From Escherichia phage ECO319P1: 64,000 nt of DNA. The DNA lies in the sequence record OP172790. One strand, 5' to 3'. Both the position numbers and the translations under genes were made by a program. A model generated the notes under the pieces. That model was given only the letters and a program-made list of their open reading frames with translations, made no database searches and was not told the DNA's origin. Of this stretch, positions 9,204-49,232 are shown piece after piece. Within the stretch, counting starts at the first letter, position 1, and each line of letters opens with the position of its first letter.

Positions 9204-9204
9204 T

Positions 9205-24371: not shown

Positions 24372-24534
24372 CCTGCAACGTCGAAATCCAGAATGTGACT
24401 GGTGTTTTTGTCTCTTACAAGTTGTAAGGGGTGAAGATTATAATGACTATTATAAATGTCCGCAATGTGGTGAGACTACTCCAATGCCTCAACCCAACTT
24501 CGACGATTACGACGATTTAGATTACTTAAATTAA
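24361..24534 (+). CDS. small zinc-ribbon protein
   Basis: CDWC...CPQC pair; ATG 24361 overlaps nrdG 3' end. Confidence 0.35.
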   Translation: MYRNLQRRNPECDWCFCLLQVVRGEDYNDYYKCPQCGETTPMPQPNFDDYDDLDYLN

Positions 24535-25036: not shown

Positions 25037-25038
25037 GG

Positions 25039-25064
25039 AAGCTGCCTTCGGGCGGCTTTTGTTG
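25039..25064 (+). terminator. rho-independent terminator (UUCG tetraloop)
   Basis: AGCTGCC / GGCGGCT stem, TTCG loop, then TTTTGTTG. Confidence 0.65.
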
Positions 25065-25804: not shown

Positions 25805-27640
25805 ATGGAAATCACATCAAGCTGGGACAAACCGTTCCAACTCGAACAGAAAGTGGCTCACATTATTAGCCAACAAGCAAAGCATGGATGCGACTTCAAT
25901 AGTCGTAATGCTCATTGGTATGTTCATCTGTTAACTGAACGTATCATCAACATTGATTTGCAGTTGGTTCCAACTCTGCCACCTATGATGCACAAAGGCA
26001 CTGAATACAAGGCTCCGTTCAAGATGAATGGTAAGCCGAAGGTGTTTGTCCAGAAGTATATGGACGCTCAAGGTCTGACAGAGGATATGGTAGGTGGCCC
26101 GTTTACAGCGGTGTGGTTTACCCCGTTCGACCCAAGTAAAACTTCACGTCTAAAAGATGTGATGTTGGACATGGGGTGGATGCCTACTGAATGGAACCAG
26201 AAGAAGATGCCGTTTCAACTTTGGACGTATAAAAAGCGTCTGGAGAAGACGACCTTCCGCAAGTTCATGGAAGAGCAGACAAGTACCGACGAACGTGAAC
26301 TATTTCTTCCCTTAGTTAATGGTTTTGTTGCTCAACATTTTGTTGGGAAATCAAAAGGTTACATGAAAGCAATCCTCAGTGCTCTGGGGTTTGATTTAAA
26401 GCGTGTACCGAATTTTGACCAGATTAAGAAGCGTCTTTTGTTGAGTCAGTTCTGGCCGACTTCTCCAAAAATCACTGAAGATTCATTTGAGTCAGTAAGT
26501 GAGGAAGAAGGTCATTCACTGAAACTCCTGAAAGAGCGTATGGTGTGGTCGCACCGTCGTTCACTGATTCAGGGTTTGATTGAACTGACTCGTCAGGATG
26601 GTAAAATCTCTGGTGAAGCTAACCCATGTGCAACTCCGACAGCACGTATGAGACACAAGGGTATTGTAAACATTCCAGCCGCAGGTGCTCCTTTCGGTGA
26701 AGAGTGTCGCTCATTGTTCCGTGGTAATAAACGTACTGGAACAAAAGCAAAGATTATTCATAAACTTACTGCACAGATGGTTGAATCTGGTAAGTTTCGT
26801 CGTAAACCGTTCACTAATATCATGCAGGTTTCAAATGGTAAAGGTGGATGGGAAGACGAAGGTCATGTATCATTCCTGATTCCAGCGGGGCAAGATGCTT
26901 TCGTTGGTGGTGATGGTGCAGGTCTTGAACTTCGAATGTTGACTCACTACCTGATTGCAGTATCCAAAATGCTTCTGAAAGACGCTGAGGAAGCGGGTAA
27001 TGATAAGTTAATCCGTTACTACGGTGCCGCTTTACAGTCAGCATATGAGTATCGTGAGGTTCTTCTGAATGGTGATATTCACAGTCACAACCAGAAGCTC
27101 GCAGGTCTGCCAACTCGTAAGTCAGCTAAGACGTTTATCTACGCATTCTTATATGGTGCTGGTGATGCGAACTTGGGTGGTCAACTTGGTGCAGGCCGTG
27201 AAGAGGGTGCAGCTTTACGTGCTCGATTCTTGAAAGAATGTCCTTGTATTCCAGTTCTGATTGAGTGGGTTCAGGATTTTGCCAAGAAGAATGGTTGGGT
27301 TCCGGCAATTGATGGTCGTAAACTTATCATGCGTCGTGACCCTTTCAGTGGCGAAGTTATGGCTCACAAAGCACTGAATACAATGTTACAAGCAGCAGGT
27401 TCAATCGTGATGAAATATGCAGGTTGTTATCTGACTTCTTGGAATGCTCGTGATTGCTTAGATGCACATCAGGTTATCATGATGCACGATGAATATCAGT
27501 TCACTTGCAAATGGGAAGATGTTGAAGCTTTACGTCGTAACATTGACTCGTGTGTTAAGAAAGCTGGTGAATATTTGAAAATGGAATGTCCATTAGCGTC
27601 TGACTCAATGTTAGGTGCAAACTGGCTTCATACCCACTAA
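25805..27640 (+). CDS. DNA polymerase, family A, polymerase domain only
   Basis: AAGGAG RBS; motif A GGDGAGLELR, motif C HDEYQ; no exonuclease motifs in this ORF. Confidence 0.9.
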   Translation: MEITSSWDKPFQLEQKVAHIISQQAKHGCDFNSRNAHWYVHLLTERIINIDLQLVPTLPPMMHKGTEYKAPFKMNGKPKVFVQKYMDAQGLTEDMVGGPFTAVWFTPFDPSKTSRLKDVMLDMGWMPTEWNQKKMPFQLWTYKKRLEKTTFRKFMEEQTSTDERELFLPLVNGFVAQHFVGKSKGYMKAILSALGFDLKRVPNFDQIKKRLLLSQFWPTSPKITEDSFESVSEEEGHSLKLLKERMVWSHRRSLIQGLIELTRQDGKISGEANPCATPTARMRHKGIVNIPAAGAPFGEECRSLFRGNKRTGTKAKIIHKLTAQMVESGKFRRKPFTNIMQVSNGKGGWEDEGHVSFLIPAGQDAFVGGDGAGLELRMLTHYLIAVSKMLLKDAEEAGNDKLIRYYGAALQSAYEYREVLLNGDIHSHNQKLAGLPTRKSAKTFIYAFLYGAGDANLGGQLGAGREEGAALRARFLKECPCIPVLIEWVQDFAKKNGWVPAIDGRKLIMRRDPFSGEVMAHKALNTMLQAAGSIVMKYAGCYLTSWNARDCLDAHQVIMMHDEYQFTCKWEDVEALRRNIDSCVKKAGEYLKMECPLASDSMLGANWLHTH

Positions 27641-29027: not shown

Positions 29028-29483
29028 ATGGCAAGAAAACCCACTGTAATTGATAACTCATTCCTTGTTGATATGTTCAATTCTATTGACGGTATCGGAG
29101 ATTTGGGAAGTTGGATGCAAGATGTAATTTATGGAAGTGCTCGTCTTGGTCATTCTAACCCATCAGCAGCAGTGGCAATTTTCAAGGCTTTAGCGACTCT
29201 TCCAGTTATTAGCTTTGACACTGTAAAGCACTTCGTAAACAACAGGTCAGAGGTAATTGACCAACGTACATTCAGTGACAGACATGTTTATGCCTTCATG
29301 AACAGAGTCTTATCAGCACGGAAAGGTATTGAGTTTTACTATGAACGTAAGACTGGTCAGAAATTTCATAGCATTGAACCAGTGGAAGATGTTGATTCTA
29401 CTGATTTTGTCTATGCTGATGGTGTAAAAGCCAGTGAATTAGTTTACGAAAATGTTGTAAGAAATCATGGAACCGAACACTAA
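29028..29483 (+). CDS. hypothetical protein
   Basis: Track start 29004 lies inside the conserved motif; ATG 29028 chosen instead. Confidence 0.5.
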   Translation: MARKPTVIDNSFLVDMFNSIDGIGDLGSWMQDVIYGSARLGHSNPSAAVAIFKALATLPVISFDTVKHFVNNRSEVIDQRTFSDRHVYAFMNRVLSARKGIEFYYERKTGQKFHSIEPVEDVDSTDFVYADGVKASELVYENVVRNHGTEH

Positions 29484-29558
29484 TGTATAGTGTCTAATGA
29501 GCGAAGGACGTTTTAACTGAGCCTTCACAATTGAGTTTTATATAAGGAAATATATCAT

Positions 29559-30326
29559 ATGTCTACTGCAATCCCTTCTACCTCCTCTTCTAAAAAATCT
29601 CGCACTGTTTATGATGCAATTGAAAACGATGTTTACGACGCACGTATCGTCCGCTTCATTGGTCTGGGTGTTCAGGAACAACCTGAATGGCAGGGTGAGA
29701 AGAAATCTCCAGCCTTTAAATGCTCCATCTCTTTTGAACTGATTGATATCGACGCAACTGGTCGCACTTTCGAAGGTGATGAAGATAAAGTCGGTAAGCC
29801 GATTGACCCTCGTCCTTCTTGCATGTTCAAAGATTACTACCTGTTCCCAGGCGCTAAACGTGGCGGTGTGTTCGACCTGTGTAAAGCAATCGACCCATCA
29901 ATCACTGAAGTTCCTCGTAATCTGGAATGGTTCATGGATAAGCTGGGTGAAGTTGTGAGTGTTGGTGTTGGTTCTTATACTACCAAAGCTGGTGTAACTC
30001 GTAACAAAGTTACTTCTGTTGGTGCTGTAAGTTCTCGTAACAAGCCTAAAGTTGGTGAAGCACGTTCTGAACTGGTTGGTTTCAACCCGTATGTAGATTC
30101 TCCGGAAATGGTTCAGGCCTACGGTAAAGTTTACAAATTCCAGCGTGACATGCTGACTGAAGCACACGATAAAGCGAATATCCCGTTTGCTGGTAAAGAG
30201 CCAGTTAACGACAGCGGTGATGGTGAGCGTCCAAGCAACACTGAAACTCGTGAAGAGCAGAAGTACTCCAAGACTTCTAATCAAACTCCTAACGATGTTC
30301 CTTTCGACGACGATATCCCGTTCTAA
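29559..30326 (+). CDS. putative single-stranded DNA-binding protein with acidic C-terminal tail
   Basis: C-terminus PFDDDIPF matches the E. coli SSB tip DDDIPF; position within replication module. Confidence 0.55.
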   Translation: MSTAIPSTSSSKKSRTVYDAIENDVYDARIVRFIGLGVQEQPEWQGEKKSPAFKCSISFELIDIDATGRTFEGDEDKVGKPIDPRPSCMFKDYYLFPGAKRGGVFDLCKAIDPSITEVPRNLEWFMDKLGEVVSVGVGSYTTKAGVTRNKVTSVGAVSSRNKPKVGEARSELVGFNPYVDSPEMVQAYGKVYKFQRDMLTEAHDKANIPFAGKEPVNDSGDGERPSNTETREEQKYSKTSNQTPNDVPFDDDIPF

Positions 30327-30351: not shown

Positions 30352-30374
30352 GAGGCCTTCGGGCCTCTTTATTT
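30352..30374 (+). terminator. rho-independent terminator (UUCG tetraloop)
   Basis: GAGGCC / GGCCTC stem, TTCG loop, then TTTATTT. Confidence 0.7.
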
Positions 30375-30398
30375 GGATTGTAATAACAAGGATGTGTT

Positions 30399-30956
30399 AT
30401 GGCAAAGCGACTAAGTGCTCCAGTTCCAAAGAAGGAACATTATAAAGACTTCGATGAATTATATCGTGAGTATTGGGCACCACTTCAGAAACAATTCTTC
30501 TACATGGAAAAGGATTATCAGCTTGCTGAGGATTTAGCTCAGGAAACGATGCTCCGAGTGTGGCAGTATTGGGACAGAATCCAGTGGGATAAACTTGGTG
30601 GTGTGATTGGTACAATTGCCAACAACGTCCGGTACGGTTATGTTCGAAAAGAATTTGACCGAGTTGATACAGAGATGTACGACAACATTCTGGATTTTGA
30701 ATGTCATGATGATGGCTTAACTGACCCAATTCGTGATGTATTAAATAATGAGGCAAGCACTTTTGTTCAGTATGCTTTTGAGAAGCTTAAACCACAGGAA
30801 CGTGAGTTGTTCTCGGATGTTTATCTGAAGAACCTGAAAACAAAAGATGTTGCAAAGAAACATGGTATGACTACTGGCCATATCTATGTTCAATTGTTCC
30901 GTATTCGAACTCAACTGGTTACTAACCTTGAGCGTCACGATATTGGAACAAACTAA
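30399..30956 (+). CDS. phage-encoded sigma-70 family (ECF-like) sigma factor
   Basis: Region-2-like LAEDLAQETMLRVWQYW and region-4 HTH DVAKKHGMTTGHIYVQLFRIRTQL. Confidence 0.7.
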   Translation: MAKRLSAPVPKKEHYKDFDELYREYWAPLQKQFFYMEKDYQLAEDLAQETMLRVWQYWDRIQWDKLGGVIGTIANNVRYGYVRKEFDRVDTEMYDNILDFECHDDGLTDPIRDVLNNEASTFVQYAFEKLKPQERELFSDVYLKNLKTKDVAKKHGMTTGHIYVQLFRIRTQLVTNLERHDIGTN

Positions 30957-30968: not shown

Positions 30969-31169
30969 ATGGAAGTTGTATACCAGAACGGCATGTATGA
31001 AGTAAAAGTTAATCGGTACGATAATGAGTACCTAGTTGTTAACGTGAAGACTGATGTGGTTGAGGCTCGTGAATCGGCATTGCCCACAGCAGAATACAAA
31101 GCTGATGCTCTTCGTGAAGTTACGCTGAAACGTAATGAAGTTAAGGGTAAAGCGGAGGCAGCACAATAA
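30969..31169 (+). CDS. hypothetical protein
   Basis: AAGGAG RBS, ATG start. Confidence 0.45.
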   Translation: MEVVYQNGMYEVKVNRYDNEYLVVNVKTDVVEARESALPTAEYKADALREVTLKRNEVKGKAEAAQ

Positions 31170-32065
31170 TGCGAGTCCTCCTTGATTGCGACATTCTAAG
31201 ATATCAAATCGGTTCAGTGAAAGCTGCTCACCCATTCTTAAAGGGAGAGTTTGTTCCTGCTCCTGAGTCGGAGATTTGTCGGTTGGTCGAGGATTTGATT
31301 CAGCATGTGATTAAGATTAATAAGGCAGACAGTTATGTCTGTCCTTTATCCGGTAAAGGTAATTTCCGATTGGACATTGCCAAACAGGAACCCTATAAGG
31401 GTAATCGAGACCCAAACGTAACACGACCTTTTCACTATGACACTGTTGGTGACTACATCATTAAGAACCACCCTCACGTAATTGTTGATGGGATGGAAGC
31501 AGATGATTGGCTAGGCATCGAGCAGCGTAAAGACCCAGAGAATACTTGTATTGCGTCAAGGGATAAAGACCTTGGAACCGTATTTGGTTATCACTACCGT
31601 TGGGCTTGTGGCGAATATCAGCCAGAAAGAACAATTCACTGGATAACTCCATACGAAGCAACTGAGTTCTTCTTCCACCAAATGCTCACAGGCGACAACA
31701 CAGATAATATTCTTGGGTGTGGTAAGCGTGAGATGGTTAAGTGGGGAGGCAAAATGATGCTTCGCCGCAAGGGTGTTGGTAAGGGTGCTGCTGATAAGAT
31801 TTTAGCAACTTGCTCAACCGTACAAGAAATGTATGATGCTGTTAAGGCTGAATACGAAAAAATTTTTAGTGACGAGCACGAGGATGTGATGCTCGAAAAT
31901 GCCAGATTGCTCTACATTGGGCAAACACCAGACAAACTGTTTGAGTGGGACTGGCTTGACTACCAACTAAGTAAGGATACTAACGATGAACTTTTACCAA
32001 CTGAACAGCCTGAATGCACCGGACACCCTACTGATGGTGAATCTGAGCCTTATCACGAAGATTGA
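31169..32065 (+). CDS. 5'-3' exonuclease / flap endonuclease (T7 gp6-like)
   Basis: GGAGG RBS; blocks DGMEADDWLG, ASRDKDL, GDNTDNILGCG paralleling T7 gene 6 exonuclease motifs. Confidence 0.8.
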   Translation: MRVLLDCDILRYQIGSVKAAHPFLKGEFVPAPESEICRLVEDLIQHVIKINKADSYVCPLSGKGNFRLDIAKQEPYKGNRDPNVTRPFHYDTVGDYIIKNHPHVIVDGMEADDWLGIEQRKDPENTCIASRDKDLGTVFGYHYRWACGEYQPERTIHWITPYEATEFFFHQMLTGDNTDNILGCGKREMVKWGGKMMLRRKGVGKGAADKILATCSTVQEMYDAVKAEYEKIFSDEHEDVMLENARLLYIGQTPDKLFEWDWLDYQLSKDTNDELLPTEQPECTGHPTDGESEPYHED

Positions 32066-32405: not shown

Positions 32406-32412
32406 TCAAATA

Positions 32413-32438
32413 AGGCTGTCTTCGGACGGCCTTTCTTT
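32413..32438 (+). terminator. rho-independent terminator (UUCG tetraloop)
   Basis: GGCTGTC / GACGGCC stem, TTCG loop, then TTTCTTTT. Confidence 0.7.
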
Positions 32439-35439: not shown

Positions 35440-36060
35440 ATGTTAAAATTTATTTGGTCTATTATAGCCACTGTAGGTGTACTTGCTTCCTGTTACATAT
35501 CTGATGCTTCTCCTATCATCACAACAGCTTCTGTCATTGGTGTCTTATTTGTTCTTGGTGTAGCTTTCAAGAATGCTTGGACAAACCTGTTAGGTGCTGC
35601 ATTAACGCTGATATATGGATACCTTTCTTACAGTGCAGGTTATTATGCTAACGCACTGATAAATGTGACAGTGCTATTCCCACTACAGTTAATAGCTTTC
35701 TGGTTCTGGAAGAAGACAGAAGGTAAGACGTTTACATTAACTGAAGATTGGAAGAAAGCAATCATAGTGTTATCTGGTATAGGTATCCTCATTTCCTGCA
35801 CACTGACTAAATCCTATGGTTCACATCTTTGGCTTCATGATGGAATCTCAGCGGTATTAGTTATTGTTGCTACTTTCCTCCTGATGTTAAAAGTGAAAGA
35901 ACAGTGGTATGCTTGGATTCCTTATAATGCACTTGAAGTGTTTATGTGGTTCATGGCTGCTTCTTTAAATCCTGATATGTTGGCTATCTTTGTGATGCGT
36001 AGCATCTTCTTTGCTAACTCTCTGATTGGTGCTTACGAGTGGTTCGGTAAGAAATCTTAA
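35440..36060 (+). CDS. polytopic membrane protein, possibly PnuC-like nicotinamide riboside transporter
   Basis: 7-8 predicted TM helices, Trp-rich; segment ALINVTVLFPLQLIAFWFW reminiscent of PnuC; tentative. Track start 35383 lies inside conserved motif. Confidence 0.4.
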   Translation: MLKFIWSIIATVGVLASCYISDASPIITTASVIGVLFVLGVAFKNAWTNLLGAALTLIYGYLSYSAGYYANALINVTVLFPLQLIAFWFWKKTEGKTFTLTEDWKKAIIVLSGIGILISCTLTKSYGSHLWLHDGISAVLVIVATFLLMLKVKEQWYAWIPYNALEVFMWFMAASLNPDMLAIFVMRSIFFANSLIGAYEWFGKKS

Positions 36061-36117
36061 TAACATTCACTATTATATAATGTCATGGTTTTAATCCTCA
36101 TATGTAATGGTGAATTT

Positions 36118-36246
36118 ATGAAAGTCAAAGATTATAATGAAGAACGTTGGGAACGCAACTCTGAATCAAACAAAGAGCGTAAGATTGCTAAGAAACGTTT
36201 TAAAGAGAAACATAATCCTTGGGCTAGTTTGAGTAATAAAAAATAA
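36118..36246 (+). CDS. hypothetical small basic protein (42 aa)
   Basis: ATG ORF ending just before a terminator; weak RBS. Confidence 0.3.
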   Translation: MKVKDYNEERWERNSESNKERKIAKKRFKEKHNPWASLSNKK

Positions 36247-36250
36247 GTTA

Positions 36251-36277
36251 GGGCTGCCTTCGGGCGGCCTTTTTTCG
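36251..36277 (+). terminator. rho-independent terminator (UUCG tetraloop)
   Basis: GGCTGCC / GGCGGCC stem, TTCG loop, then TTTTTTC. Confidence 0.7.
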
Positions 36278-36293
36278 TTTATGGAGGCCAAGG

Positions 36294-36731
36294 ATGGCAA
36301 GAAAGTTTAAGAAGCGCTATGCACCAAAGAAGCAGAATCTAATCAAGGGAACACCTTATGATTCACTGTTCGAGAAGGAAATTCACGAGAGGCTCCTTCA
36401 AGACGCACGTTTTCACGATAAATCGGATAGAGTTGACTATAAAGTTCCCCATTATTACGAACCCGACTTCGTGCTTGAAAAGGACGGTAAGACCTTTTAT
36501 ATTGAGACGAAAGGGAGATTTCGTGATTCGAGCGAGGCTAGGAAATATCTATTTGTTCGGGAGAATTTGCCGGAAGATGCAGAGCTAGTCTTCATTTGGG
36601 AGAAAGCCAACACTGTATTCCCGTTCGCTAAGAAGCGCAAAGACGGAACTAAGGCGACTCACGGAGAGTGGGCAGACAAGAATGGTTTTCGTAATTGGGT
36701 ACAGACGGAGTTTACAGTGGAGAAATTATGA
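36294..36731 (+). CDS. endonuclease I (Holliday junction resolvase, T7 gp3-like)
   Basis: GGAGG RBS; YEPDFVLEKDGKTFYIETKG parallels T7 endonuclease I YTPDFLLPNGIFVETKG. Confidence 0.8.
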   Translation: MARKFKKRYAPKKQNLIKGTPYDSLFEKEIHERLLQDARFHDKSDRVDYKVPHYYEPDFVLEKDGKTFYIETKGRFRDSSEARKYLFVRENLPEDAELVFIWEKANTVFPFAKKRKDGTKATHGEWADKNGFRNWVQTEFTVEKL

Positions 36732-37171
36732 TTAAATATATTGTCGCTGTTCTTGCAATAGTGGCATCATACACAGGGACATTCTATCTGGGAGTAAGTC
36801 ACGGTGTGATTGAAACTCAGAATGGGATGTTAAAGAAGAATACTGAACAGTTAGAAGATTTGATTTCTAATGTTCAAACAGTTGACACGAAACTGAATAA
36901 CAATGCTATGGTTCAAGAAGAAATCAAAGCGAAGCTCAGTTTGAGACAGAATGAAGTAACGAAGGAGGTTATTAAATATGCTCAAAGGCCTGATGCTAAC
37001 GATGTTGTGCTTGATGATGATTGGGTGCGGGTCTACAACGATTCCAACGCCTCAGCAGGAACCGGAGATACCAGTTCCAGCCAAGTACAAGGTCAAACCG
37101 GAAGAGCCAGTAGCGATGCCTCTAAGCCCCTCAAAATTGAAGTCTCTGGAAGTAGTAAAGGACAACAATGA
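36728..37171 (+). CDS. Rz: i-spanin (Rz-like)
   Basis: N-terminal TM helix then helical periplasmic domain; ATG overlaps endonuclease stop (ATGA); contains embedded Rz1 frame. Confidence 0.6.
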   Translation: MIKYIVAVLAIVASYTGTFYLGVSHGVIETQNGMLKKNTEQLEDLISNVQTVDTKLNNNAMVQEEIKAKLSLRQNEVTKEVIKYAQRPDANDVVLDDDWVRVYNDSNASAGTGDTSSSQVQGQTGRASSDASKPLKIEVSGSSKGQQ

Positions 37172-37273: not shown

Positions 37274-40200
37274 TTATTTAATGTCTGGTGCATCAATACC
37301 AAACTCACCAATTGCCCCTTCCCCAATCGTAGCGGCTTTCTGACGTTTACGCTCCTCAGCCATCAATTCTTTCAACTTCTTAGTTGTGTGAACAACCATA
37401 TCAGAAGTATTACTCGAACCAAACACTGCAAGACGAGCACGAACACCCAAATCACCCATATACGTTGAAGTCTGGTCAGGACGACGTTTCAATGCATCAT
37501 TAACTGCTCGCATATCAGACTGAGACAACCACAGGTCTGGATTGTTAGGGAACTCTTCTTTACGTTTTAGTGCATCACGAATCGCATCACGGGTCAGGCG
37601 AATTGCTTTCGCATCATCACGAAGACCTACACGGTTCAGACTACCTGCCAACGTATTAACAGAGGTATCAAACATCTGATAACCAATGTCAGAAGTAGAA
37701 CTCAGGTTTTCAGGAATATTGTTAACCAGAGCCTCAGAGATAGCACCCACTTCATCTGGATTCTTACCCTTCATCTCAGCTTCAATAGCTTTCTTCATAC
37801 TCTCTTCCACATTCCCACCTTTCACCTCAGCCTTGTCGATAGCTTCATTGAGTTTAGCTTCATCAGCTTTCTTCTTCGCAGCTTCCATACGTTCAGCTTT
37901 GGCTTTAGCTTTTTCCTGAGCAAGTTCAACACGACGAGTCTGAGCATCATTTGCTTTCTTAACATTATCACGGAACAACTCAAGGTTATTCACCTGACGA
38001 CGCCAGTTAGCAACTTCAGTAGGCTGTGCCGTATTTGGCTTAGCAAGAGCAGCTTGTAAGGCTTCCAGTTCATTATCAATGTAGCTGTGCATTTTATTCA
38101 TGACACTCTTCATGCCAGAATCACTCAGGCCTACACCTTTGTTACCACGATTACGAGTACGTGTAGCTTTCTCGATTTCCTGACGGATTTCACGAGGAAT
38201 TGAAACATTACCTTCACCATCTACAAACAGGTCACGAGCATATTCATTCAACTCATTGTAACTGTCTTGAGCAGTTGGTTTTGGTTTAGCCTCTGGCTTA
38301 GCAGCTTTTGACTTAGTTTCAGTCTTAGCTGGAGCTTCCTCAGCGAGCAAACGCTTAACAAAGTTACCAACCTGACGAGCAGTATACATCTGACCTTCTG
38401 GTGCATTATCCTCAGCCATACGTACAGCACGGGAGAACAATTCATCAGTAACCATGTCAGAAGCAGAACGCATATCAGTTTTAAGCTGTGCTACAGCCTC
38501 ATCACGCTGTTTAATTGTCTTGGCCTGAGTAGACTCTTCAACATTATCAACAACACGTTGAGCGGCTGCTTTCGCATCTTCTGCCAGCTTAACCTTATAC
38601 TCAGCAACAACAGAAGGCAGAGCCTCTTTAACACTGGAGTAACCACGCTCTTCCATTGTACGAGTCAGAGCATCCATACCACCGTGATAGTCGATAGCAG
38701 CATAAATACCTTGTTCAGAGATACCTGAGTTTGGCTGTGCAGCATAACGTTTGATGTTCTGCTCAGTGCTTTCACGGAACTCTTTAGCTTTACGCCATTC
38801 TGGAGTACGTGGCATTGCAGAAGAAACATCTTTGTTACGAACTTTTGAGAACTCAGCTTCACGTTGTTTCAGTGGTAGCATTACCTTCTCTTTATAGTCC
38901 ACAGGTTCGCTAGGAGCCTCTGTACGGGCTTCTGGAGCTTCGGTAGTAGAAGTGCCTTCTGTAGCGGCTGGAGCTTCTTGTGGAGCCTCTGGTGCAGTCT
39001 CAACAGGTTCTTCTGCTGGAGCACGACGCTGAGAATCAACACGAGCATCCTGAGCCATCTGTTCTTGACGAGCAGCACGTTCAGCAGCTACCACTTCTGG
39101 GTCAACTACAGGCTCATTCACAGGCGCTTCACGGCTTGGAGTACGTGCCATAGTATCATCCATAGGTGCACGAGGTGTTGGCTCTACAGGAGCTTCTACA
39201 GGCGTTTCTACAGGTGCTACAGGTTCTACTGGAGCAGTTTCCATTGGAGCAGTCGTATCTGCTGGGTTGATACCCATATCACGCAGGTTATTAGCTGCTT
39301 CATCAGCGGCTGCTGCTGTGTTACCTTGTTCCAAATGTTCCTGCATACGTGCTTGAGAAGTATTCTGTGCATTTTCGATGAATTCATCAGCCTCAGAACG
39401 TGCTTGGTCAAACGCCTTACGATTACGCATAGGGCGGAGTGCACCACGAGCCAGACGGGTTACTGTACGTACTGGAGGAAGGCCAAACTTCATCAGGAGA
39501 GCATCAGAAGCTAAATCACCAGCAACAGCACCTTTACTATTCTCTTTACCTTCCTGTTTCAGAGTATTTGGATTATACTCATGAATACTTGGATTCTGCG
39601 CATGGAATACATCAGAGTAAGTATAAGCTGCTTTTGCAGTCTTAACAGGGTTGAATGCAGTACCATCAAAGTTTTTCAGGTCTTTCAGCATACCAACTTC
39701 ATTCAAAGCTCGCATTAGGGTGATAGAGTTGTTACGAAGTGAACCATCATCTAGTTTATGCAAAGATTTACCAGAAGAGTATTTACTAATACCATCATCC
39801 AAGGCTTTAGCAGCATTCAGTGCAACGTTATAGTTAGGGTCAATACGACCATCAGAATATAGAGAACTGTTTTTATCCTGAATTAAGTTAGTCAGGTTGT
39901 TACGAAGAGAACGAATAGGAGACAGAATCTCAGCATAACCTTCATCGAAAGAGTTACGGAGGTTTTTCATCTGAATTTCAGAGTTATAACCTTGTTCTTT
40001 AGCTTTCTCTTTACCGAACATCAATGGAGACATATCAGCGTACAGAGTACCACCTGCCTGTTCCAATTCACGCTCTGATTTACCCATAATATCACGGGCT
40101 AAGTTACGACCACCAACTTCCACATCCATTGCTTTAGCAGTTAATGGAGCACCTTTACGCTGAGCAAGAGCCAAAGCTGAGAGGGCTGCATCATCTGCAC

Positions 40201-41188
40201 CTGCCGCACTCATAGACACATCAACCATATCATTGATTTTTGCACTAGAGTCTGCTGTGATTGGCATATCCATCAATTCATTGAACTGGTTACCATATTC
40301 GTTAGCATGCTCTGCTGCGTTGTTACCAAAGTCTGAATGAACACCACCAGTTTCCTGATTGATTACATTCACATCACTCTGAACACGACGACCATCATCA
40401 TTGATTGGTCGCTGGAAACGCTGAGCAAAACCACCCATATTACGGGCTGCCATATTAGCACCATGTAAACCAGCACCTGCAACAGCACCAATACCAAATG
40501 CTTCACCTACGTTTTCGTCCCAAGGACGACCCATAGCGATGTTCTGATAAGCTGTCATAGCTGCGTTACTTGAACCAGCCTGTGCTGCCTGAGCACCTAA
40601 TTCACCTGCCACACGAGCAGTAGGACGGGTCAGACCACGAGCAATATTAACACCTTTACTTGCCAGACCTGCTGTAGCATAGTCTGTAACACCAGATGCA
40701 ATACCAGTCGTTAATGCGTTACCCATGTCGTAATTCTGACCAGCTTCCTGCTGTTGAGCAAGAGTATCTGCTGTTGCCAGACCACCAAGAGCCACAGCAC
40801 CTGCTTCTGGAGCCGCAATACCCGCTGCAACTACTGGAGCATAAGTACCAACATCAGCCGCAAAACCTGAAATAGTACCTAATTTACTACGCTCTTGCTG
40901 GTACTCTTTACTTGCAATTTTAGCTTTAGCCAGTTCATAGTCAGACGCATCTTGGTCTGTTACAGTGGCTGCTAGTACGTTACGACCCATACGTGACCAA
41001 CCAGACGTCATAGTGTCCCAGATGGAACCATCATCTGCTGGCTGTGCTTGAGGAGCTTCTTGAGGGGCTTGCTGAGGGGCTGGAGTATCACTATAACCGT
41101 TTTGGTTGTTAATGTACTCAATCATCTGGTCTTGAGACGTTCCTTCCGGGAAGTTGTAAGTCTGACCATTAAAAGTAGCACTAGGCAT
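37274..41188 (-). CDS. large internal virion / ejection protein (1304 aa)
   Basis: AAGGAG RBS; last and largest gene of minus-strand virion operon; Gly/Ala-rich N-region, Pro-rich repeat linker, long helical region. Confidence 0.6.
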   Translation of the reverse strand: MPSATFNGQTYNFPEGTSQDQMIEYINNQNGYSDTPAPQQAPQEAPQAQPADDGSIWDTMTSGWSRMGRNVLAATVTDQDASDYELAKAKIASKEYQQERSKLGTISGFAADVGTYAPVVAAGIAAPEAGAVALGGLATADTLAQQQEAGQNYDMGNALTTGIASGVTDYATAGLASKGVNIARGLTRPTARVAGELGAQAAQAGSSNAAMTAYQNIAMGRPWDENVGEAFGIGAVAGAGLHGANMAARNMGGFAQRFQRPINDDGRRVQSDVNVINQETGGVHSDFGNNAAEHANEYGNQFNELMDMPITADSSAKINDMVDVSMSAAGADDAALSALALAQRKGAPLTAKAMDVEVGGRNLARDIMGKSERELEQAGGTLYADMSPLMFGKEKAKEQGYNSEIQMKNLRNSFDEGYAEILSPIRSLRNNLTNLIQDKNSSLYSDGRIDPNYNVALNAAKALDDGISKYSSGKSLHKLDDGSLRNNSITLMRALNEVGMLKDLKNFDGTAFNPVKTAKAAYTYSDVFHAQNPSIHEYNPNTLKQEGKENSKGAVAGDLASDALLMKFGLPPVRTVTRLARGALRPMRNRKAFDQARSEADEFIENAQNTSQARMQEHLEQGNTAAAADEAANNLRDMGINPADTTAPMETAPVEPVAPVETPVEAPVEPTPRAPMDDTMARTPSREAPVNEPVVDPEVVAAERAARQEQMAQDARVDSQRRAPAEEPVETAPEAPQEAPAATEGTSTTEAPEARTEAPSEPVDYKEKVMLPLKQREAEFSKVRNKDVSSAMPRTPEWRKAKEFRESTEQNIKRYAAQPNSGISEQGIYAAIDYHGGMDALTRTMEERGYSSVKEALPSVVAEYKVKLAEDAKAAAQRVVDNVEESTQAKTIKQRDEAVAQLKTDMRSASDMVTDELFSRAVRMAEDNAPEGQMYTARQVGNFVKRLLAEEAPAKTETKSKAAKPEAKPKPTAQDSYNELNEYARDLFVDGEGNVSIPREIRQEIEKATRTRNRGNKGVGLSDSGMKSVMNKMHSYIDNELEALQAALAKPNTAQPTEVANWRRQVNNLELFRDNVKKANDAQTRRVELAQEKAKAKAERMEAAKKKADEAKLNEAIDKAEVKGGNVEESMKKAIEAEMKGKNPDEVGAISEALVNNIPENLSSTSDIGYQMFDTSVNTLAGSLNRVGLRDDAKAIRLTRDAIRDALKRKEEFPNNPDLWLSQSDMRAVNDALKRRPDQTSTYMGDLGVRARLAVFGSSNTSDMVVHTTKKLKELMAEERKRQKAATIGEGAIGEFGIDAPDIK
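39183..39232. repeat. degenerate tandem repeats (TCTACAGG-like units) encoding PVE/PVA repeats
   Basis: Repeated CTACAGG units visible on plus strand; protein segment PVEPVAPVETPVEAPVEP. Confidence 0.6.
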
Positions 41189-41234: not shown

Positions 41235-42884
41235 TTAATGAAACGTCACGTTGTTACGAGACGCTTTTGGTTCCCAATTCCCGATACCAGAGCCATTAGC
41301 TTGGAACTTAACTGCTGCACGAGCACGGTCGGCACCAATCTTAGGAATAAGGTTTTCGTACATTGACTGAAGGTTGTCAACAACAACTTGGTGTTCAGTG
41401 TTGATACCACGGTTAGAAGATGCAATAGCACGTTCAATCTCACCAGAGGTAGGAGCACCACGTACACCACGAACAACTGCGTTAGAAGCCTGACCCCACC
41501 AAGTACGTGGGCCTGCAATATCAGACGCATCATGACGGTCGATTTTACCCAAACCACCCTGCATTGCTTTACCATATGATTCCTCATACTGGTCATAAGC
41601 TGCTGCTGCACCTGCGGTATCACCTGCTTCAAGTAACTGTTTCGCTTTCTGGGCTGCTTCTTGAGCAACTGCCATACGAGAACGTTTAAGGTTACTATCA
41701 TCGGTAAATTTCTTACCTTGCTGGAGAACCATACGTGCTTCTGGGTTTGTAATACCCCACTCTGGGTCTTCACCTGCTGCTGCCTGTTTAGCTGCATACT
41801 TCGATTTCTCAAAGTTGAGACGCTCACGAGACAGACCAAGCTGAGCATTAGAGTTCGCAATTGAGTTACGAATCTGCGCTTCAGTGAGAGCATCTTTACG
41901 CTGTTCACGACCAAGCTGATACTGACGCATTTCAGGAGAACCTTCGTACAGTGCATTATCAAGCTGCTGCATCTGGAGTCTCTGCTGAATCATCTTCATC
42001 TGTTTCTCTTGTGGAGAAGTCAGAACTTTAGAATCACCAGTACGTTTCCACTCTTCGATTTCAACAGGGTCATAGCCTTGCTTAGCCAAATCTTCAGCCC
42101 AATAGCTTCGACGTTCTTCACCATACATCTGGTTGAACGCTTCACCTGCTGCACCAAAAGATGTTGCCAAATCATTACCGCTTAACAGGTTCAGACCAAA
42201 AGAGATAAGACCCATGTTAAAAGAGTTAGATTTGTACCAAGCAGGAATCTTGTTCTGGTCAAAAGCAGCCTGTTTACCTTGAGCATTCAAATTCATATCC
42301 TGAACTTGAGTCTGAGTAGGAGGAGTTGGTAATGGTGTATTTACATTACCTGAGAAGCCACCAACACCTTTTGATTTATTTTCATTCAGTGCTGAGATGT
42401 GACCAACGGGGTCTTGACCTGCATCTGGGACTTGTTTATATCCCTGAGCCTGTAAATCAGCCTGTTTCTGCTGACTCTCTTGGATACCCGCTTGAATCTC
42501 ATTCTGCTTATCCTGTGCCTGAGTTGCTGGAGTACTTAAAGCACCTTGCATATCCTTTGCTTTATAGCTTTTATAAGCTGCAAGCTCCTCTGGAGAGGCT
42601 GGATACTGACCACCATGTTCTGCTGCATAATCACGTTCAGCCATAGAATCTGATACATAGTTTGCTGTTGGGCCGACTACATAATCAGACAATGGTTGAG
42701 CAACATACCTGTTTGTCAAATCATTTGCATATAAATACGCATCTTTAGGTACATTAAGAACAGCCTTACCAGCATCAATCAAGCTGTTAAGTGTAGACTT
42801 ACTATTAGAAGTCTGAGGGTTATAGTTACCAGAAATGGTATCAATCATACCACTTGCGGAAACACCATCATACATGCCAGCCAT
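41235..42884 (-). CDS. virion internal protein (hypothetical)
   Basis: AGGAGG RBS; ATG overlaps upstream stop (TAATG); Gln-rich. Confidence 0.6.
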   Translation of the reverse strand: MAGMYDGVSASGMIDTISGNYNPQTSNSKSTLNSLIDAGKAVLNVPKDAYLYANDLTNRYVAQPLSDYVVGPTANYVSDSMAERDYAAEHGGQYPASPEELAAYKSYKAKDMQGALSTPATQAQDKQNEIQAGIQESQQKQADLQAQGYKQVPDAGQDPVGHISALNENKSKGVGGFSGNVNTPLPTPPTQTQVQDMNLNAQGKQAAFDQNKIPAWYKSNSFNMGLISFGLNLLSGNDLATSFGAAGEAFNQMYGEERRSYWAEDLAKQGYDPVEIEEWKRTGDSKVLTSPQEKQMKMIQQRLQMQQLDNALYEGSPEMRQYQLGREQRKDALTEAQIRNSIANSNAQLGLSRERLNFEKSKYAAKQAAAGEDPEWGITNPEARMVLQQGKKFTDDSNLKRSRMAVAQEAAQKAKQLLEAGDTAGAAAAYDQYEESYGKAMQGGLGKIDRHDASDIAGPRTWWGQASNAVVRGVRGAPTSGEIERAIASSNRGINTEHQVVVDNLQSMYENLIPKIGADRARAAVKFQANGSGIGNWEPKASRNNVTFH

Positions 42885-43417
42885 TACTGACCTCCTTGCA
42901 TCTGAGCAGCCTGTTCAGGGGTAACACCCTCTGGAGGAACACCTTGAGGCTCCTGCTGCTGAGGTTGCTGACCTGAGAATTGGTTGATAATACCCATAAT
43001 CTGCTGCTGTTCTTGTTCTGCTTTTGCTTTTTCCATGAGAGGTTTCTCATTACGCTGGAAATGGGCAGCAGAGTCTTGTACAAACTGACGAAGACGTTGT
43101 TCAGCGATTGGCTGTGGCATATAACCCTGTTTAACCTGTTCACGAAGACCAGTGGCAAGCTGTGTTAATTCATCCATGACACCACCAAAATACGGGTCAT
43201 TCTGTTTGAAGTGGTCAAAGTTTTGATAGAAAGTAGATTCTTTATAGGAATTATCTTCTTCTGGCTTTGGTGACTGTCCCGTAGGAACACCACTTGGGGG
43301 TTGATTGGTTTGGGGACGATTGATAGGAAGGCCAGAAGCCTGAGCAATTTCGTCAGCACGTTGACGACGCTGAGCCTCTAGTTCTCCCATTCGTTCCAAA
43401 TAAGCATTAGTGGCCAT
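42884..43417 (-). CDS. virion protein (hypothetical)
   Basis: AAGGAG RBS, ATG start, Gln/Pro-rich. Confidence 0.55.
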   Translation of the reverse strand: MATNAYLERMGELEAQRRQRADEIAQASGLPINRPQTNQPPSGVPTGQSPKPEEDNSYKESTFYQNFDHFKQNDPYFGGVMDELTQLATGLREQVKQGYMPQPIAEQRLRQFVQDSAAHFQRNEKPLMEKAKAEQEQQQIMGIINQFSGQQPQQQEPQGVPPEGVTPEQAAQMQGGQ

Positions 43418-43427: not shown

Positions 43428-44276
43428 TTATTTGATTCTTAACGGGGAATACATTGGTTGACTATAAATATCATTCATAGTTCTAGTTAGTAGCTGATTT
43501 TCCATTTTATTACCACGGAAGTTGGCCCTGTACGCTGGAGCAAGTTGTGGGGCACTAACACGCTGCTGTTCTTGCTCATTTGGTTTCACACTATTAATAA
43601 CACGAGAAACCTGACTCCAAGTATTTGGGTCACTTAGTGCAGAACCACTAGAAGCACCAGTTGATGTAGGAACAGTGCCAAGAGCGCTTGCGGATGCTGG
43701 AGCACTTGCTGCACCATAAGTACCACCTGATGCTGCTGCACCTTGAGTTGTTAACATAGCAGGCGTGAAAGAAGATGCACCAGCAGTAGAACCAGCAGCA
43801 CCGACACCAGCATGACCCATGCTAAGCAAAGACGAGGTTGCTGGCGCTGAGCTTGCCAATGCACCACCTGTGGTAGAAACACCACCGGCTGCTGTAGGAG
43901 CCATATAAGCACCTGCACCCACACCGCCAACTGCACTAGCACCTGTACCTGCTGCTCCAGCACCACCCGCCCCTGCTGCACCTGCCGTACCAGCAGCACC
44001 CGCACCATAAGCACCAGCCGCAGCCCAACCACCAAAGATTGTACCAACAACTGCTGCTGCTGTTTCTTGTGGGTGTTTACCTACCCAACCACCAATCCCA
44101 CCCTTACCAAGCATCTGACTATCATTTCGCTCGTTCTGACCCGGAATCTTCTTCAGCGTATCAAAACCATGCTTTGGGTCTTTGATAATATCACGAGTTA
44201 CTTGAAAAGGTTGTTCAATAAGTTCACCTGCACGATGAATACCACCTTTAAACAGACCACCTAAATCGAATCCCAT
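43428..44276 (-). CDS. Gly/Ala-rich virion protein (hypothetical)
   Basis: GGAGG RBS 6 nt before ATG at 44276 (track start 44288 is TTG); long G/A/T low-complexity core. Confidence 0.55.
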   Translation of the reverse strand: MGFDLGGLFKGGIHRAGELIEQPFQVTRDIIKDPKHGFDTLKKIPGQNERNDSQMLGKGGIGGWVGKHPQETAAAVVGTIFGGWAAAGAYGAGAAGTAGAAGAGGAGAAGTGASAVGGVGAGAYMAPTAAGGVSTTGGALASSAPATSSLLSMGHAGVGAAGSTAGASSFTPAMLTTQGAAASGGTYGAASAPASASALGTVPTSTGASSGSALSDPNTWSQVSRVINSVKPNEQEQQRVSAPQLAPAYRANFRGNKMENQLLTRTMNDIYSQPMYSPLRIK

Positions 44277-44306: not shown

Positions 44307-44309
44307 TTA

Positions 44310-48694: not shown

Positions 48695-48755
48695 TTCATT
48701 TTTTCCTTAATTAACCGCCAATAACATTTCTATTAGTGACGGTTAAGGGAAAAGA

Positions 48756-49232
48756 TTACTTATTACTCTCTGGGTCAGGGTCTTCTGGGAATTCAGAACG
48801 TTTCCACTCTGCATACTTATCAATGAAGTCTTTATACTTAATTAAGAAGTCTGCATACTTAACACCAAAATCTGTATACTGAGTTGTGAACCCATCAATC
48901 ATCTTCTGAGTGTTGGTAATCATACCGCTCAATGTGGTAATCTGAGTGTTAGTTTCAGTGACCTGTTTATCAATCACAGCAACCTGAGCCTGAATGTATT
49001 TCAGAGATTCAGCAGCAAAGTCTGCCTGTTCTTGTGCAGATTCAGCAGCCTCCTGAGCCTCTGATACCCAAACAGCCAAATCTTTTACACCAGAAAGGTC
49101 ACGAGAAGTCCAACCAAATTGACCTGCGTTTGGAAGAGAAGCTTCTGTAATCATGACTGCTGAGTTTGGGTCAGTTGCCATTGGGTTAACACGGAGTACA
49201 CGACGTACCCCGTTAGAACTATACAAAGCCAT
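48756..49232 (-). CDS. tail fibre-associated protein, N-terminal domain paralogous to 52143-52922
   Basis: AGGAGG RBS; segment PNAGQFGWTSRDLSGVKDL paralleling GQPNVGLFAWTTNDLTGIKDI of the other gene. Confidence 0.55.
   Translation of the reverse strand: MALYSSNGVRRVLRVNPMATDPNSAVMITEASLPNAGQFGWTSRDLSGVKDLAVWVSEAQEAAESAQEQADFAAESLKYIQAQVAVIDKQVTETNTQITTLSGMITNTQKMIDGFTTQYTDFGVKYADFLIKYKDFIDKYAEWKRSEFPEDPDPESNK

What the first reader, a model, noticed from the sequence alone, without database searches (positions are those of the whole stretch)
30399..30956. Phage-encoded sigma factor and no single-subunit RNA polymerase in the window
Despite a T7-like replication module, no T7-type RNA polymerase is visible in these 64 kb; instead there is an ECF-like sigma factor with recognisable regions 2 and 4. 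Late transcription is therefore probably driven by host core polymerase redirected by this sigma factor.
Basis: partly seen in the sequence, partly recalled or inferred. Interest (0 to 1): 0.55.

Follow-up and report, generated by a model that had tools for sequence, protein, structure and literature searches.

The report
Known phage late sigma factor
The gene is a real phage-encoded sigma factor that redirects the host's RNA polymerase to the phage's non-early genes, but a 78%-identical protein in Salmonella phage 7-11 has already been proven biochemically to do this, so the finding is correct but ordinary.

Summary
Observation confirmed; interpretation supported; already known. ORF 30399-30956 (+), 185 aa, passes the curated cut-offs of Pfam Sigma70_r2 and Sigma70_r4_2 and of NCBIfam TIGR02937 (sigma70-ECF), with no region 1 or 3.

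The window is a Crifsvirus (Grimontviridae), about 89% nucleotide identity and colinear with Cronobacter phage A24. Its sigma is 97.8% identical to A24's annotated 'RNA polymerase ECF sigma factor' and 78% identical to Salmonella phage 7-11 gp47. Lavysh et al. 2022 showed that gp47 binds E. coli core RNA polymerase and transcribes late promoters GTAAtg-N16-aCTA.

That motif occurs 10 times in the window (1.7 expected), always co-oriented with the genes. Nine copies lie 12-117 nt upstream of gene starts and are conserved in A24. They correspond to the nine GAP52 promoters already predicted in that paper's Table S4.

No phage RNA polymerase was found: T7 RNAP tblastn, Pfam and PHROG scans of the large ORFs, and a DxDGD motif scan were all negative for the window. 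The T7 tblastn, the motif scan and the deposited annotation were likewise negative for the complete A24 genome, which covers the ~11 kb missing here.

The only small addition is that a stem-loop plus U-tract directly upstream of the sigma gene is conserved across six genera and looks like an intrinsic terminator.

The parts
30399..30956 (+). Sigma factor gene, 185 aa. Two-domain ECF-type sigma: sigma2 at residues ~22-82, sigma4 at ~124-173.
   Evidence: ORF. Pfam r2 and r4_2 are above gathering score and TIGR02937 is above its cut-off. It is 97.8% identical to A24 gp071, 95.6% to the GAP52 sigma, and 78% to 7-11 gp47. Regions 2.1-2.4 and the region 4.2 positions K154, Y163, V164, L166, R168 and R170 are invariant across 10 phages down to 46% identity.
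30388..30392 (+). Shine-Dalgarno sequence AAGGA, 6 nt before the ATG of the sigma gene.
   Evidence: Read directly from the sequence.
30352..30374 (+). Stem-loop GAGGCC-TTCG-GGCCTC followed by TTTATTT, between the 255-aa gene and the sigma gene. It has the form of an intrinsic terminator or attenuator (or an RNA-stabilising hairpin).
   Evidence: Sequence; flagged as terminator-like. An equivalent stem plus T-run is present in all 10 phages compared, although stem and loop sequences differ. Privateer annotates a terminator at the same spot. Lavysh et al. mapped a late-kinetics primer-extension stop there in 7-11.
29457..29482 (+). Candidate sigma-dependent promoter GTAAGA-N16-ACTA, 76 nt upstream of the 255-aa gene that precedes sigma. 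Equivalent to 7-11 P48 and GAP52 P71, and the likely source of positive feedback on sigma.
   Evidence: Conserved in A24 and GAP52 with spacer changes. Orthologous 7-11 P48 was validated in vivo and in vitro. GAP52 P71 is listed in Table S4.
29559..30326 (+). 255-aa protein of unknown function (homologue of 7-11 gp48 and phiEco32 gp40) with an acidic C-terminus ...DDDIPF. First gene of the sigma cassette.
   Evidence: phrog_6599, function unknown; no Pfam hit. Syntenic in all relatives. The resemblance of its C-terminal tail to T7 gp2.5 SSB is my inference only.
30969..31169 (+). 66-aa protein of unknown function immediately downstream of sigma. Syntenic in every relative.
   Evidence: phrog_26830; no Pfam hit. 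Alignment A2 has 44% mean column identity and no Cys/His zinc motif.
31169..32065 (+). 5'-3' exonuclease, last conserved gene of the cassette.
   Evidence: phrog_107, E = 5.5e-65. The Pfam 5_3_exonuc_N hit is weak and below its cut-off.
32412..32433 (+). Second CTTCGG stem-loop with a T-rich tail, closing the sigma-exonuclease unit.
15644..15669 (+). Candidate sigma-dependent promoter, 52 nt upstream of primase/helicase (GAP52 P46).
   Evidence: The A24 orthologue keeps GTAA and ACTA although the spacer differs, in a region of 82% identity. Listed in Table S4.
18013..18038 (+). Candidate sigma-dependent promoter, 117 nt upstream of dCTP deaminase (GAP52 P48).
   Evidence: Exact matches lie at the same gene boundary in 7-11 (52180, - strand) and Privateer (47928, - strand).
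24424..24449 (+). Candidate sigma-dependent promoter ahead of the gene block that leads to the DNA polymerase (7-11 P69, GAP52 P59).
36047..36072 (+). Candidate sigma-dependent promoter ahead of the small ORF, endonuclease I and Rz-spanin cassette (7-11 P28, GAP52 P86).
43488..43513 (-). Candidate late promoter, 70 nt upstream of the 177-aa gene 42884-43417 (7-11 P22, GAP52 P92).
48734..48759 (-). Candidate late promoter, 39 nt upstream of the 83-aa virion structural gene (7-11 P16, GAP52 P98).
56831..56856 (-). Candidate late promoter, 91 nt upstream of the major head protein gene (7-11 P8, GAP52 P107).
63247..63272 (-). Candidate late promoter at the head of the late operon: first gene, tRNAs, terminase (7-11 P1, GAP52 P1).

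Best explanation
The ORF encodes the late (non-early) promoter-specificity subunit of a Crifsvirus, a 7-11/GAP52-type podophage.

Proposed sequence of events:
1. Early genes, which lie outside this window, are transcribed by host sigma70 holoenzyme. Read-through from them first produces the sigma factor.
2. The sigma binds host core RNA polymerase through its sigma2 domain.
3. It directs the polymerase to bipartite promoters GTAA(G/T)n-N16-ACTA, with sigma4 reading the -35 GTAA and sigma2 reading the -10 ACTA.
4. Nine such promoters are in the window: four in front of structural/packaging operons on the minus strand, and five in front of replication, nucleotide-metabolism, lysis and sigma-cassette genes on the plus strand.
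5. The promoter at 29457 lies upstream of the two-gene unit that ends in sigma, giving positive feedback. A terminator-like stem-loop at 30352-30374, between the two genes, probably limits how much transcription reaches sigma.

No phage RNA polymerase is involved.

What is shown in this sequence: the domain architecture, the orthology, motif enrichment with correct strand, position and spacing, and motif conservation.
What is shown only in the 78%-identical 7-11 orthologue: core binding, promoter-specific initiation, late kinetics, and competition with sigma70.
What is inferred for this phage: the transfer of all of that, the feedback loop, and the terminator role.
For: Domains are above curated thresholds and the protein matches a PHROG sigma family.

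Orthology: 78% identity over the full length to the biochemically characterised 7-11 gp47, with residues 60-92 (the region 2.3/2.4 area) identical. Experimental data for gp47 are in PMC8948821.

Motif GTAA-N18-ACTA:
- 10 matches against 1.69 +/- 1.35 expected; 0 of 100 shuffles reach 10.
- All 10 are co-oriented with local genes, and 9 of 10 lie 12-117 nt upstream of a start codon.
- Only the N18 spacing is enriched, and it is enriched in four genomes: 10, 9, 11 and 17 matches, against 0-5 at other spacings apart from some noise in Privateer (11 at N19, 8 at N21, 6 at N22).
- A24 conserves all 9 gene-proximal sites with diverged spacers. The one intragenic hit (40938) is not conserved.
- The strict pattern marks 7 of the 8 published 7-11 promoter positions.
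- The nine sites correspond to the nine GAP52 promoters in Table S4 of the paper.

The DNA-reading parts of the protein are invariant across 10 phages.

Absence of a phage RNAP is supported.
Against: Nothing was measured for this phage or its host. All biochemistry comes from an orthologue that differs at several positions of the putative -35 recognition helix (TTGHIYVQLFRIRTQL here, TANNIYVSLHRIRNRL in 7-11).

About 11 kb of this genome is unsampled. Its content is inferred from A24, which shares 88.7% nucleotide identity over the aligned part.

The 1304-aa virion protein has no recognisable domains. Its not being a polymerase rests on negative searches and on homology to a virion protein of unknown function.

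One of the ten motif matches is probably chance, so one or two of the nine others could be too.
Confidence: 0.93

Rival explanations
1. A cryptic phage RNA polymerase carries out part of the non-early transcription and the sigma factor is only auxiliary. Candidates would be a divergent N4-like virion-packaged enzyme hidden in the 1304-aa virion protein (37274-41188, - strand), or an enzyme encoded in the unsampled ~11 kb.
For: The 1304-aa ORF has no Pfam domain and no PDB sequence relative. Its PHROG family has unknown function. Its Privateer homologue is virion-associated, as N4 vRNAP is.
Against: There is no similarity to T7 RNAP in the window or in complete A24. The 1304-aa ORF matches no PHROG polymerase family at E <= 1e-3. 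No ORF has the DxD[GA]D motif. In 7-11, early transcripts start at sigma70-type promoters and late ones are reproduced in vitro with host core plus gp47 alone. Its position at the end of the structural module, after the ejection protein, fits a T7 gp16-like internal/ejection protein (my inference). The missing region in A24 has no gene longer than 554 aa.
Confidence: 0.03
2. The protein is sigma-like but acts mainly as a competitor or decoy. It would occupy core RNAP to shut down host transcription without itself directing initiation at phage promoters.
For: In 7-11, gp47 pre-bound to core cannot be displaced by sigma70. No canonical ECF AAC/CGT promoter motif is involved.
Against: The orthologue does initiate specifically from eight promoters in vitro, and open-complex formation was shown by KMnO4 probing. 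No host shut-off is seen in 7-11. The cognate motif is enriched, correctly spaced, correctly oriented and conserved in this window. The sigma4 helix-turn-helix residues are invariant across genera, which a pure decoy would not need.
Confidence: 0.02
3. The sigma factor recognises phiEco32-type single-element promoters (tAATGTAtA), like phiEco32 gp36, rather than the bipartite 7-11-type promoter.
For: An exact TAATGTATA overlaps the -10 of the promoter in front of the sigma cassette (29481-29489). It is kept in A24 and GAP52. The best PDB sequence match is gp36 (9M7Y chain F).
Against: The element is not enriched: 10 matches with at most 1 mismatch against 13.7 expected. The other exact copy lies inside a gene, and 7-11 lacks the element at the orthologous site. 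Similarity to gp36 is limited to region 2 (37% over 49 aa). Per Lavysh et al., gp36 lacks region 4 homology, whereas this protein has a clear region 4.
Confidence: 0.02

Closest known systems
Salmonella phage 7-11 gp47 (SaPh711_gp47), late sigma factor (Lavysh et al. 2022, PMC8948821)
   Same: 78% identity over the full 185 aa. Same gene neighbourhood: gp48 homologue, stem-loop, sigma, small ORF, 5'-3' exonuclease. Same promoter consensus and spacing, at orthologous gene boundaries. No phage RNAP and no gp79 homologue reported for this subgroup.
   Different: Several substitutions in the putative -35 recognition helix. The four structural-gene promoters here start GTAAT rather than mostly GTAAG. 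The endonuclease/spanin cassette with its promoter is on the opposite strand relative to 7-11. The genome is ~75 kb rather than 90 kb.
Cronobacter phages A24 (gp071) and vB_CsaP_GAP52 'RNA polymerase ECF sigma factor' (genus Crifsvirus)
   Same: 97.8% and 95.6% amino-acid identity. Colinear genomes. Identical stem-loop. Nine promoter sites shared with A24 and predicted for GAP52 in Table S4.
   Different: Only 88.7% nucleotide identity to A24 over the aligned 62.7 kb. By the usual 95% criterion this is a different species of the same genus. Nothing differs functionally.
Escherichia phage phiEco32 gp36 (structure 9M7Y, NAR 2025, PMC12276001)
   Same: A phage-encoded, small sigma-like protein in a C3-morphotype podophage with similar genome layout. 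It redirects host core RNAP to non-early promoters located at equivalent genome positions. Region 2 is recognisably similar.
   Different: Only 37% identity over 49 aa. Per the paper, gp36 lacks region 4 homology and reads a single element, tAATGTAtA, with help from gp79, which this subgroup lacks. That element is not enriched in the window.
Bacterial group-4 (ECF) sigma factors, e.g. SigM/SigE-type (TIGR02937 superfamily)
   Same: Two-domain sigma2-sigma4 architecture, ~185 aa, above the superfamily cut-off. Bipartite -35/-10 promoter and likely autoregulation.
   Different: Below the cut-off of every ECF subfamily or equivalog model. The promoter elements GTAA / ACTA are not the usual AAC / CGT. 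No recognisable cognate anti-sigma factor is adjacent. Expression is controlled by the phage's temporal programme rather than by an envelope signal.

Membership tests
Sigma-70 family, group 4 (ECF-type) | Sigma2 domain (regions 2.1-2.4) present | tested here: met
   Pfam Sigma70_r2, residues 22-82, 27.5 bits against a cut-off of 24.
Sigma-70 family, group 4 (ECF-type) | Sigma4 domain (region 4.2 helix-turn-helix) present | tested here: met
   Pfam Sigma70_r4_2, residues 124-173, 27.9 bits against a cut-off of 25.7.
Sigma-70 family, group 4 (ECF-type) | No region 1.1 and no sigma3 domain; small size | tested here: met
   185 aa. No other sigma domain is reported at E <= 1. The TIGR02937 match spans residues 17-175, 63.5 bits against a cut-off of 42.9.
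Sigma-70 family, group 4 (ECF-type) | Membership of a defined ECF subfamily | tested here: not met
   All subfamily and equivalog NCBIfam models score far below their cut-offs (best is the SigM family, 55.5 against 147.95). It is an outlier phage clade.
Sigma-70 family, group 4 (ECF-type) | Co-encoded cognate anti-sigma factor (typical, not universal) | tested here: inconclusive
   The syntenic 66-aa downstream ORF has no Pfam hit and an unknown-function PHROG, and lacks a zinc-binding motif. The Privateer authors also found no candidate.
Sigma-70 family, group 4 (ECF-type) | Binds core RNA polymerase and confers promoter-specific initiation | not testable with these tools
   Shown for the 78%-identical 7-11 gp47. 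Not tested for this protein.
7-11 gp47-type late sigma of Grimontviridae and allied phages | Full-length orthology to gp47 | tested here: met
   142 of 182 residues identical, E = 1e-111. phrog_1740, E = 6.6e-42.
7-11 gp47-type late sigma of Grimontviridae and allied phages | Conserved synteny: gp48 homologue, stem-loop, sigma, small ORF, 5'-3' exonuclease | tested here: met
7-11 gp47-type late sigma of Grimontviridae and allied phages | Cognate bipartite promoters GTAAnn-N16-aCTA in front of late genes | tested here: met
   10 observed against 1.69 expected. Specific to the N18 spacing. Nine of the ten sit at gene boundaries, are conserved in A24, and match the GAP52 list.
phiEco32 gp36-type sigma (Kuravirus) | Full-length similarity to gp36 | tested here: not met
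   Only region 2 aligns (49 aa, 37% identity).
phiEco32 gp36-type sigma (Kuravirus) | Single-element promoters tAATGTAtA enriched upstream of middle/late genes | tested here: not met
   10 matches with at most 1 mismatch against 13.7 expected.
T7-type single-subunit RNA polymerase (claimed absent) | A protein with the Pfam RNA_pol fold or similarity to T7 gp1 anywhere in the genome | tested here: not met
   tblastn best E = 2.8 in the window and 0.63 in A24, against 1844 bits for the control. No such Pfam or PHROG hit in any ORF of 399 aa or more scanned.

The most novel reading that the evidence does not exclude
The GC-rich stem-loop plus U-tract immediately upstream of the sigma gene (30352-30374) may be a working intrinsic terminator or attenuator, conserved across six phage genera. 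It would throttle read-through from the strong promoter at 29457, and from early transcripts, into the sigma gene. That would set the timing and ceiling of the sigma's positive feedback loop, and might require a still unknown phage antitermination step. The paper instead suggests a CUUCGG RNA-stability or processing hairpin. The invariably syntenic ~65-aa protein downstream of sigma could be a partner in this control.
Probability: 0.35. Interest if true: 0.3.

Novelty: already known. Interest (0 to 1): 0.12.

Why it matters
It matters little as a discovery. The gene is annotated as an ECF sigma factor in the closest relatives. Its orthologue's biochemistry, promoters and expression programme were published in 2022, and the promoter set of the sister phage GAP52 was already predicted there.

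The practical value is for annotation. The window can be labelled as a new Crifsvirus species whose non-early genes are read by host RNA polymerase carrying a phage sigma, with nine mapped candidate promoters.

The one point that could repay an experiment is the conserved terminator-like element in front of the sigma gene. It bears on the question Lavysh et al. left open: how early transcription reaches the sigma gene, and how the early-to-late switch is timed.

Tried and rejected
1. A weight matrix built from the eight 7-11 sites was overfitted to spacer columns and found only 3 window sites. I replaced it with the core-element pattern plus shuffle, spacing and conservation controls.

2. I first took the sites upstream of primase/helicase (15644) and dCTP deaminase (18013) to be new additions to the regulon. 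Table S4 of Lavysh et al. already lists them for GAP52 as P46 and P48. Only the exact match upstream of 7-11 gp081 (52180, - strand) is missing from that table.

3. My initial claim that the strict pattern recovers 8 of 8 published 7-11 promoters was wrong for P1. The published P1 is GTAATG-N16-gCTA at 1637, not my hit at 1369, so the figure is 7 of 8.

4. The phiEco32-type element TAATGTATA occurs exactly at the -10 of the promoter in front of the sigma cassette. It is not enriched in the window and is absent at the 7-11 orthologous site, so I treat it as coincidence or a relic.

5. Folding the whole 72-nt intergenic region gives an unremarkable z-score of -1.4. The evidence for the hairpin is comparative, not thermodynamic.

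I did not pursue it, since the curated domain thresholds were already met.

7. A PDB sequence search with the 1304-aa protein found nothing meaningful.

8. The large-database protein searches were not used, because the answer did not depend on them.

Full report
**What is there.** The finding's coordinates coincide exactly with an ATG-initiated ORF, 30399-30956 on the + strand, 185 aa. An AAGGA ribosome-binding site precedes it. The protein passes the curated gathering thresholds of Pfam Sigma70_r2 (residues 22-82) and Sigma70_r4_2 (residues 124-173). It also passes the NCBIfam superfamily model TIGR02937, sigma70-ECF: 63.5 bits against a cut-off of 42.9, covering residues 17-175. It matches PHROG phrog_1740, 'RNA polymerase sigma factor', at E = 6.6e-42. 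No region 1 or region 3 is detected. It is therefore a two-domain, ECF-type member of the sigma-70 family. It falls below the cut-off of every defined ECF subfamily model.

**Which genome this is.** The 8 kb around the gene is 91.7% identical to Cronobacter phage A24 and 90.0% identical to vB_CsaP_GAP52. It is more distantly related to Salmonella phage 7-11. The whole window is colinear with A24 (75,106 bp; Grimontviridae, genus Crifsvirus), in reverse orientation, at a mean 88.7% identity over 62.7 kb. It spans A24 positions ~489 to ~64,194. The sigma protein is 97.8% identical to A24 gp071 and 95.6% identical to the GAP52 protein, both deposited as 'RNA polymerase ECF sigma factor'. It is 78% identical to 7-11 gp47. 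Relatives with 46-74% identity occur in Proteus, Aeromonas and other Salmonella and Cronobacter phages.

**What is already known about the orthologue.** Lavysh, Mekler, Klimuk and Severinov (Viruses 2022, PMC8948821) purified 7-11 gp47. They showed the following:
- It forms a stable complex with E. coli core RNA polymerase that sigma70 cannot displace.
- It directs in vitro transcription and open-complex formation at eight promoters with consensus GTAAtg-N16-aCTA, in front of genes 1, 8, 12, 16, 22, 28, 48 and 69.
- Seven of these promoters gave in vivo transcripts, which appear 20 min after infection; P12 showed no activity in vivo.
- Sigma70 holoenzyme does not use these promoters.
- Early genes are read from two sigma70 promoters at the genome end.

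They also noted that 7-11 and GAP52 lack a homologue of the phiEco32 regulator gp79. Their Table S4 lists nine predicted late promoters for GAP52.

**Testing that mechanism in this window.**
- *Enrichment.* The pattern GTAA-N18-ACTA occurs 10 times, against 1.69 +/- 1.35 expected. None of 100 dinucleotide-preserving shuffles reaches 10.
- *Orientation and position.* All ten copies are co-oriented with the local genes. Nine lie 12-117 nt upstream of a start codon, at gene boundaries. The tenth (40938) is deep inside the 1304-aa gene.
- *Spacing control.* Only the N18 spacing is enriched, and it is enriched in four genomes. Window, A24, 7-11 and Privateer have 10, 9, 11 and 17 matches, against 0-5 at other spacings apart from some noise in Privateer.
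- *Conservation.* A24 has exact matches at the nine gene-proximal positions with diverged spacers. It has none at the intragenic one.
- *Positive control.* In 7-11 the strict pattern marks seven of the eight published promoter positions. The published P1 has gCTA and is missed.
- *Match to the literature.* The nine window sites are 63247, 56831, 48734 and 43488 on the - strand, and 36047, 29457, 24424, 18013 and 15644 on the + strand. Their -35 hexamers and gene contexts correspond to GAP52 P1, P107, P98, P92, P86, P71, P59, P48 and P46 of Table S4.

The promoter map is thus confirmed but not new.

**The protein.** An alignment of ten orthologues shows invariant blocks down to 46% overall identity:
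- regions 2.1-2.4: AEDLAQE...YWDRIQWDKL...NNVR;
- the region 4.2 positions K154, Y163, V164, L166, R168 and R170;
- several conserved positions in the sigma2-sigma4 linker: F100, H103, D104, G106, D109, P110 and R112.

This is what one expects of a working sigma with a conserved promoter. The best PDB sequence match is 9M7Y chain F, which is phiEco32 gp36 in a gp79-dependent open complex. The similarity there is confined to region 2.

**No phage RNA polymerase.**
- T7 RNA polymerase has no tblastn match in the window (best E = 2.8) or in complete A24 (best E = 0.63). The T7 control scores 1844 bits.
- All ORFs of 600 aa or more are accounted for: NrdD, DNA_pol_A, a glutamine amidotransferase, a tail protein, an SU10-type portal, and a 1304-aa protein.
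- The 1304-aa protein is homologous to 7-11 gp024/gp027 and to the mass-spectrometry-verified virion protein gp023 of Privateer.
- No ORF of 100 aa or more in the window or A24 has the DxD[GA]D motif of two-barrel polymerases.
- The part of the genome missing from the window corresponds to A24's early region. That region holds Ter-like stress proteins, NAMPT, PRPP synthetase, an Srd-like 'anti-sigma/decoy' protein, a DksA-like protein and small ORFs. Its largest gene is 554 aa.

The residual uncertainty is the unannotated 1304-aa virion protein and the unsampled 11 kb of this particular genome.

**Local regulation.** The sigma gene sits in a cassette that is syntenic in all relatives examined. 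The order is a ~250-aa protein ending in an acidic ...DDD(I/V)PF tail, then sigma, then a 61-78-aa protein, then the 5'-3' exonuclease. The promoter at 29457 (equivalent to 7-11 P48) precedes the cassette, which implies positive feedback, as the paper proposed.

A GC-rich stem-loop followed by a T-run lies between the first gene and sigma (30352-30374). Lavysh et al. described it in 7-11 and GAP52 as a CUUCGG-type (printed 'GTTCGG') hairpin, possibly for RNA stability or processing.

Comparing ten phages shows that stem sequence, stem length and loop all vary: the loop is TTCG, TTTA(T), CTAGT or ATGAT. Pairing and the downstream U-tract are always kept. Privateer's authors annotated a terminator there. 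This is the signature of an intrinsic terminator or attenuator, and it is the only point on which my reading goes slightly beyond the literature. It is comparative inference only. The thermodynamic z-score of the whole spacer is unremarkable.

**Verdict.** Everything essential is already known and annotated, so interest is low. The window is a new species-level relative of A24/GAP52, and its sigma factor is an ordinary member of the experimentally characterised gp47 family.

Noticed in passing
window 30352-30374; loci L009-L014, L004, L007 upstream of position ~1500: A stem-loop plus U-tract directly upstream of the sigma gene is present in all ten phages compared, which span six genera. Stems and loops differ (TTCG, TTTA(T), CTAGT, ATGAT). 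It therefore looks like a conserved intrinsic terminator or attenuator, not specifically a CUUCGG stability hairpin. The paper prints the loop as GTTCGG, but the coding-strand sequence in 7-11 and here reads CTTCGG.
   Followed up: partly
window 25037-25060, 30352-30367, 32412-32433, 36250-36271 (+) and 44289-44308 (-): Five CTTCGG-loop hairpins with T-rich tails. All are intergenic and co-oriented with transcription. Terminator-like sites in 28-38 kb number 18 against 6.8 +/- 2.6 expected.
   Followed up: partly
window 30969-31169 (+): A 66-aa protein of unknown function (phrog_26830) follows the sigma gene directly in every relative. It is poorly conserved (44% mean column identity), has no Cys/His motif and no Pfam hit. 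It is a possible sigma partner, but this is untested.
   Followed up: partly
window 36047-37171 (+), compared with 7-11 29211-30306 (L004): The cassette of small ORF, endonuclease I and Rz-like spanin lies on the early/replication strand here, in A24 and in Privateer. In 7-11 it lies on the structural-gene strand. In each case a GTAA-N18-ACTA site precedes the cassette, so the module appears to have been inverted together with its promoter.
   Followed up: partly
7-11 genome 52180-52205 (-), L005 2180-2205; Privateer 47928-47953 (-); window 18013-18038: An exact late-promoter match lies upstream of the dCTP deaminase gene in 7-11 (gp081) and in Privateer, orthologous to GAP52 P48. The 7-11 site is not in the paper's list of eight promoters or in Table S4. 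It lies upstream of what the paper calls the first late promoter (P69).
   Followed up: partly
window promoter sites, 0-7 nt downstream of ACTA: Six of the nine window sites and five of nine 7-11 sites carry ATGT within 0-7 nt after the ACTA element, around the expected transcription start. Background is about 0.06 per 17-nt stretch. My rough binomial estimate for 6 of 9 is ~1e-7. This may be a third promoter or initiation element.
   Followed up: partly
window 29481-29489 (+); A24 35347 (-); L009 219: An exact phiEco32-type promoter element, TAATGTATA, overlaps the -10 of the promoter in front of the sigma cassette in the window, A24 and GAP52. The paper states that GAP52 has no matches. The element is not enriched overall and is absent at the orthologous 7-11 site, so it is probably coincidence.
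   Followed up: yes
window promoter -35 hexamers: All four structural-gene promoters on the - strand begin GTAAT. Four of the five + strand promoters begin GTAAG. 7-11 shows no such split. This may mark two promoter strength or timing classes.
   Followed up: no
window 17518-18012 and 25805-27640 (+): The family-A DNA polymerase is split into a separate 3'-5' exonuclease subunit gene and a polymerase gene about 8 kb apart, as in phiEco32. The replication module is therefore T7-like in content but not in organisation.
   Followed up: partly
window 5662-10913 (+): A cluster of amidoligase, glutamine amidotransferase and RimK-like ATP-grasp genes, shared with phiEco32-like phages. Its function in infection is unknown.
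   Followed up: no
window 62263-62696 (-): Three tRNA genes (Phe-GAA, Pro-TGG, Trp-CCA) sit between the first late promoter and the terminase gene, as in A24.
   Followed up: yes
A24 69368-69859 and 71456-71716 (L002), outside the window: The unsampled early region of the closest relative encodes an Srd-like 'anti-sigma / decoy of host sigma70' protein and a DksA-like zinc-finger protein. These are further candidate modulators of host RNA polymerase, and could assist the sigma switch even though no sigma70 shut-off was seen in 7-11.
   Followed up: no
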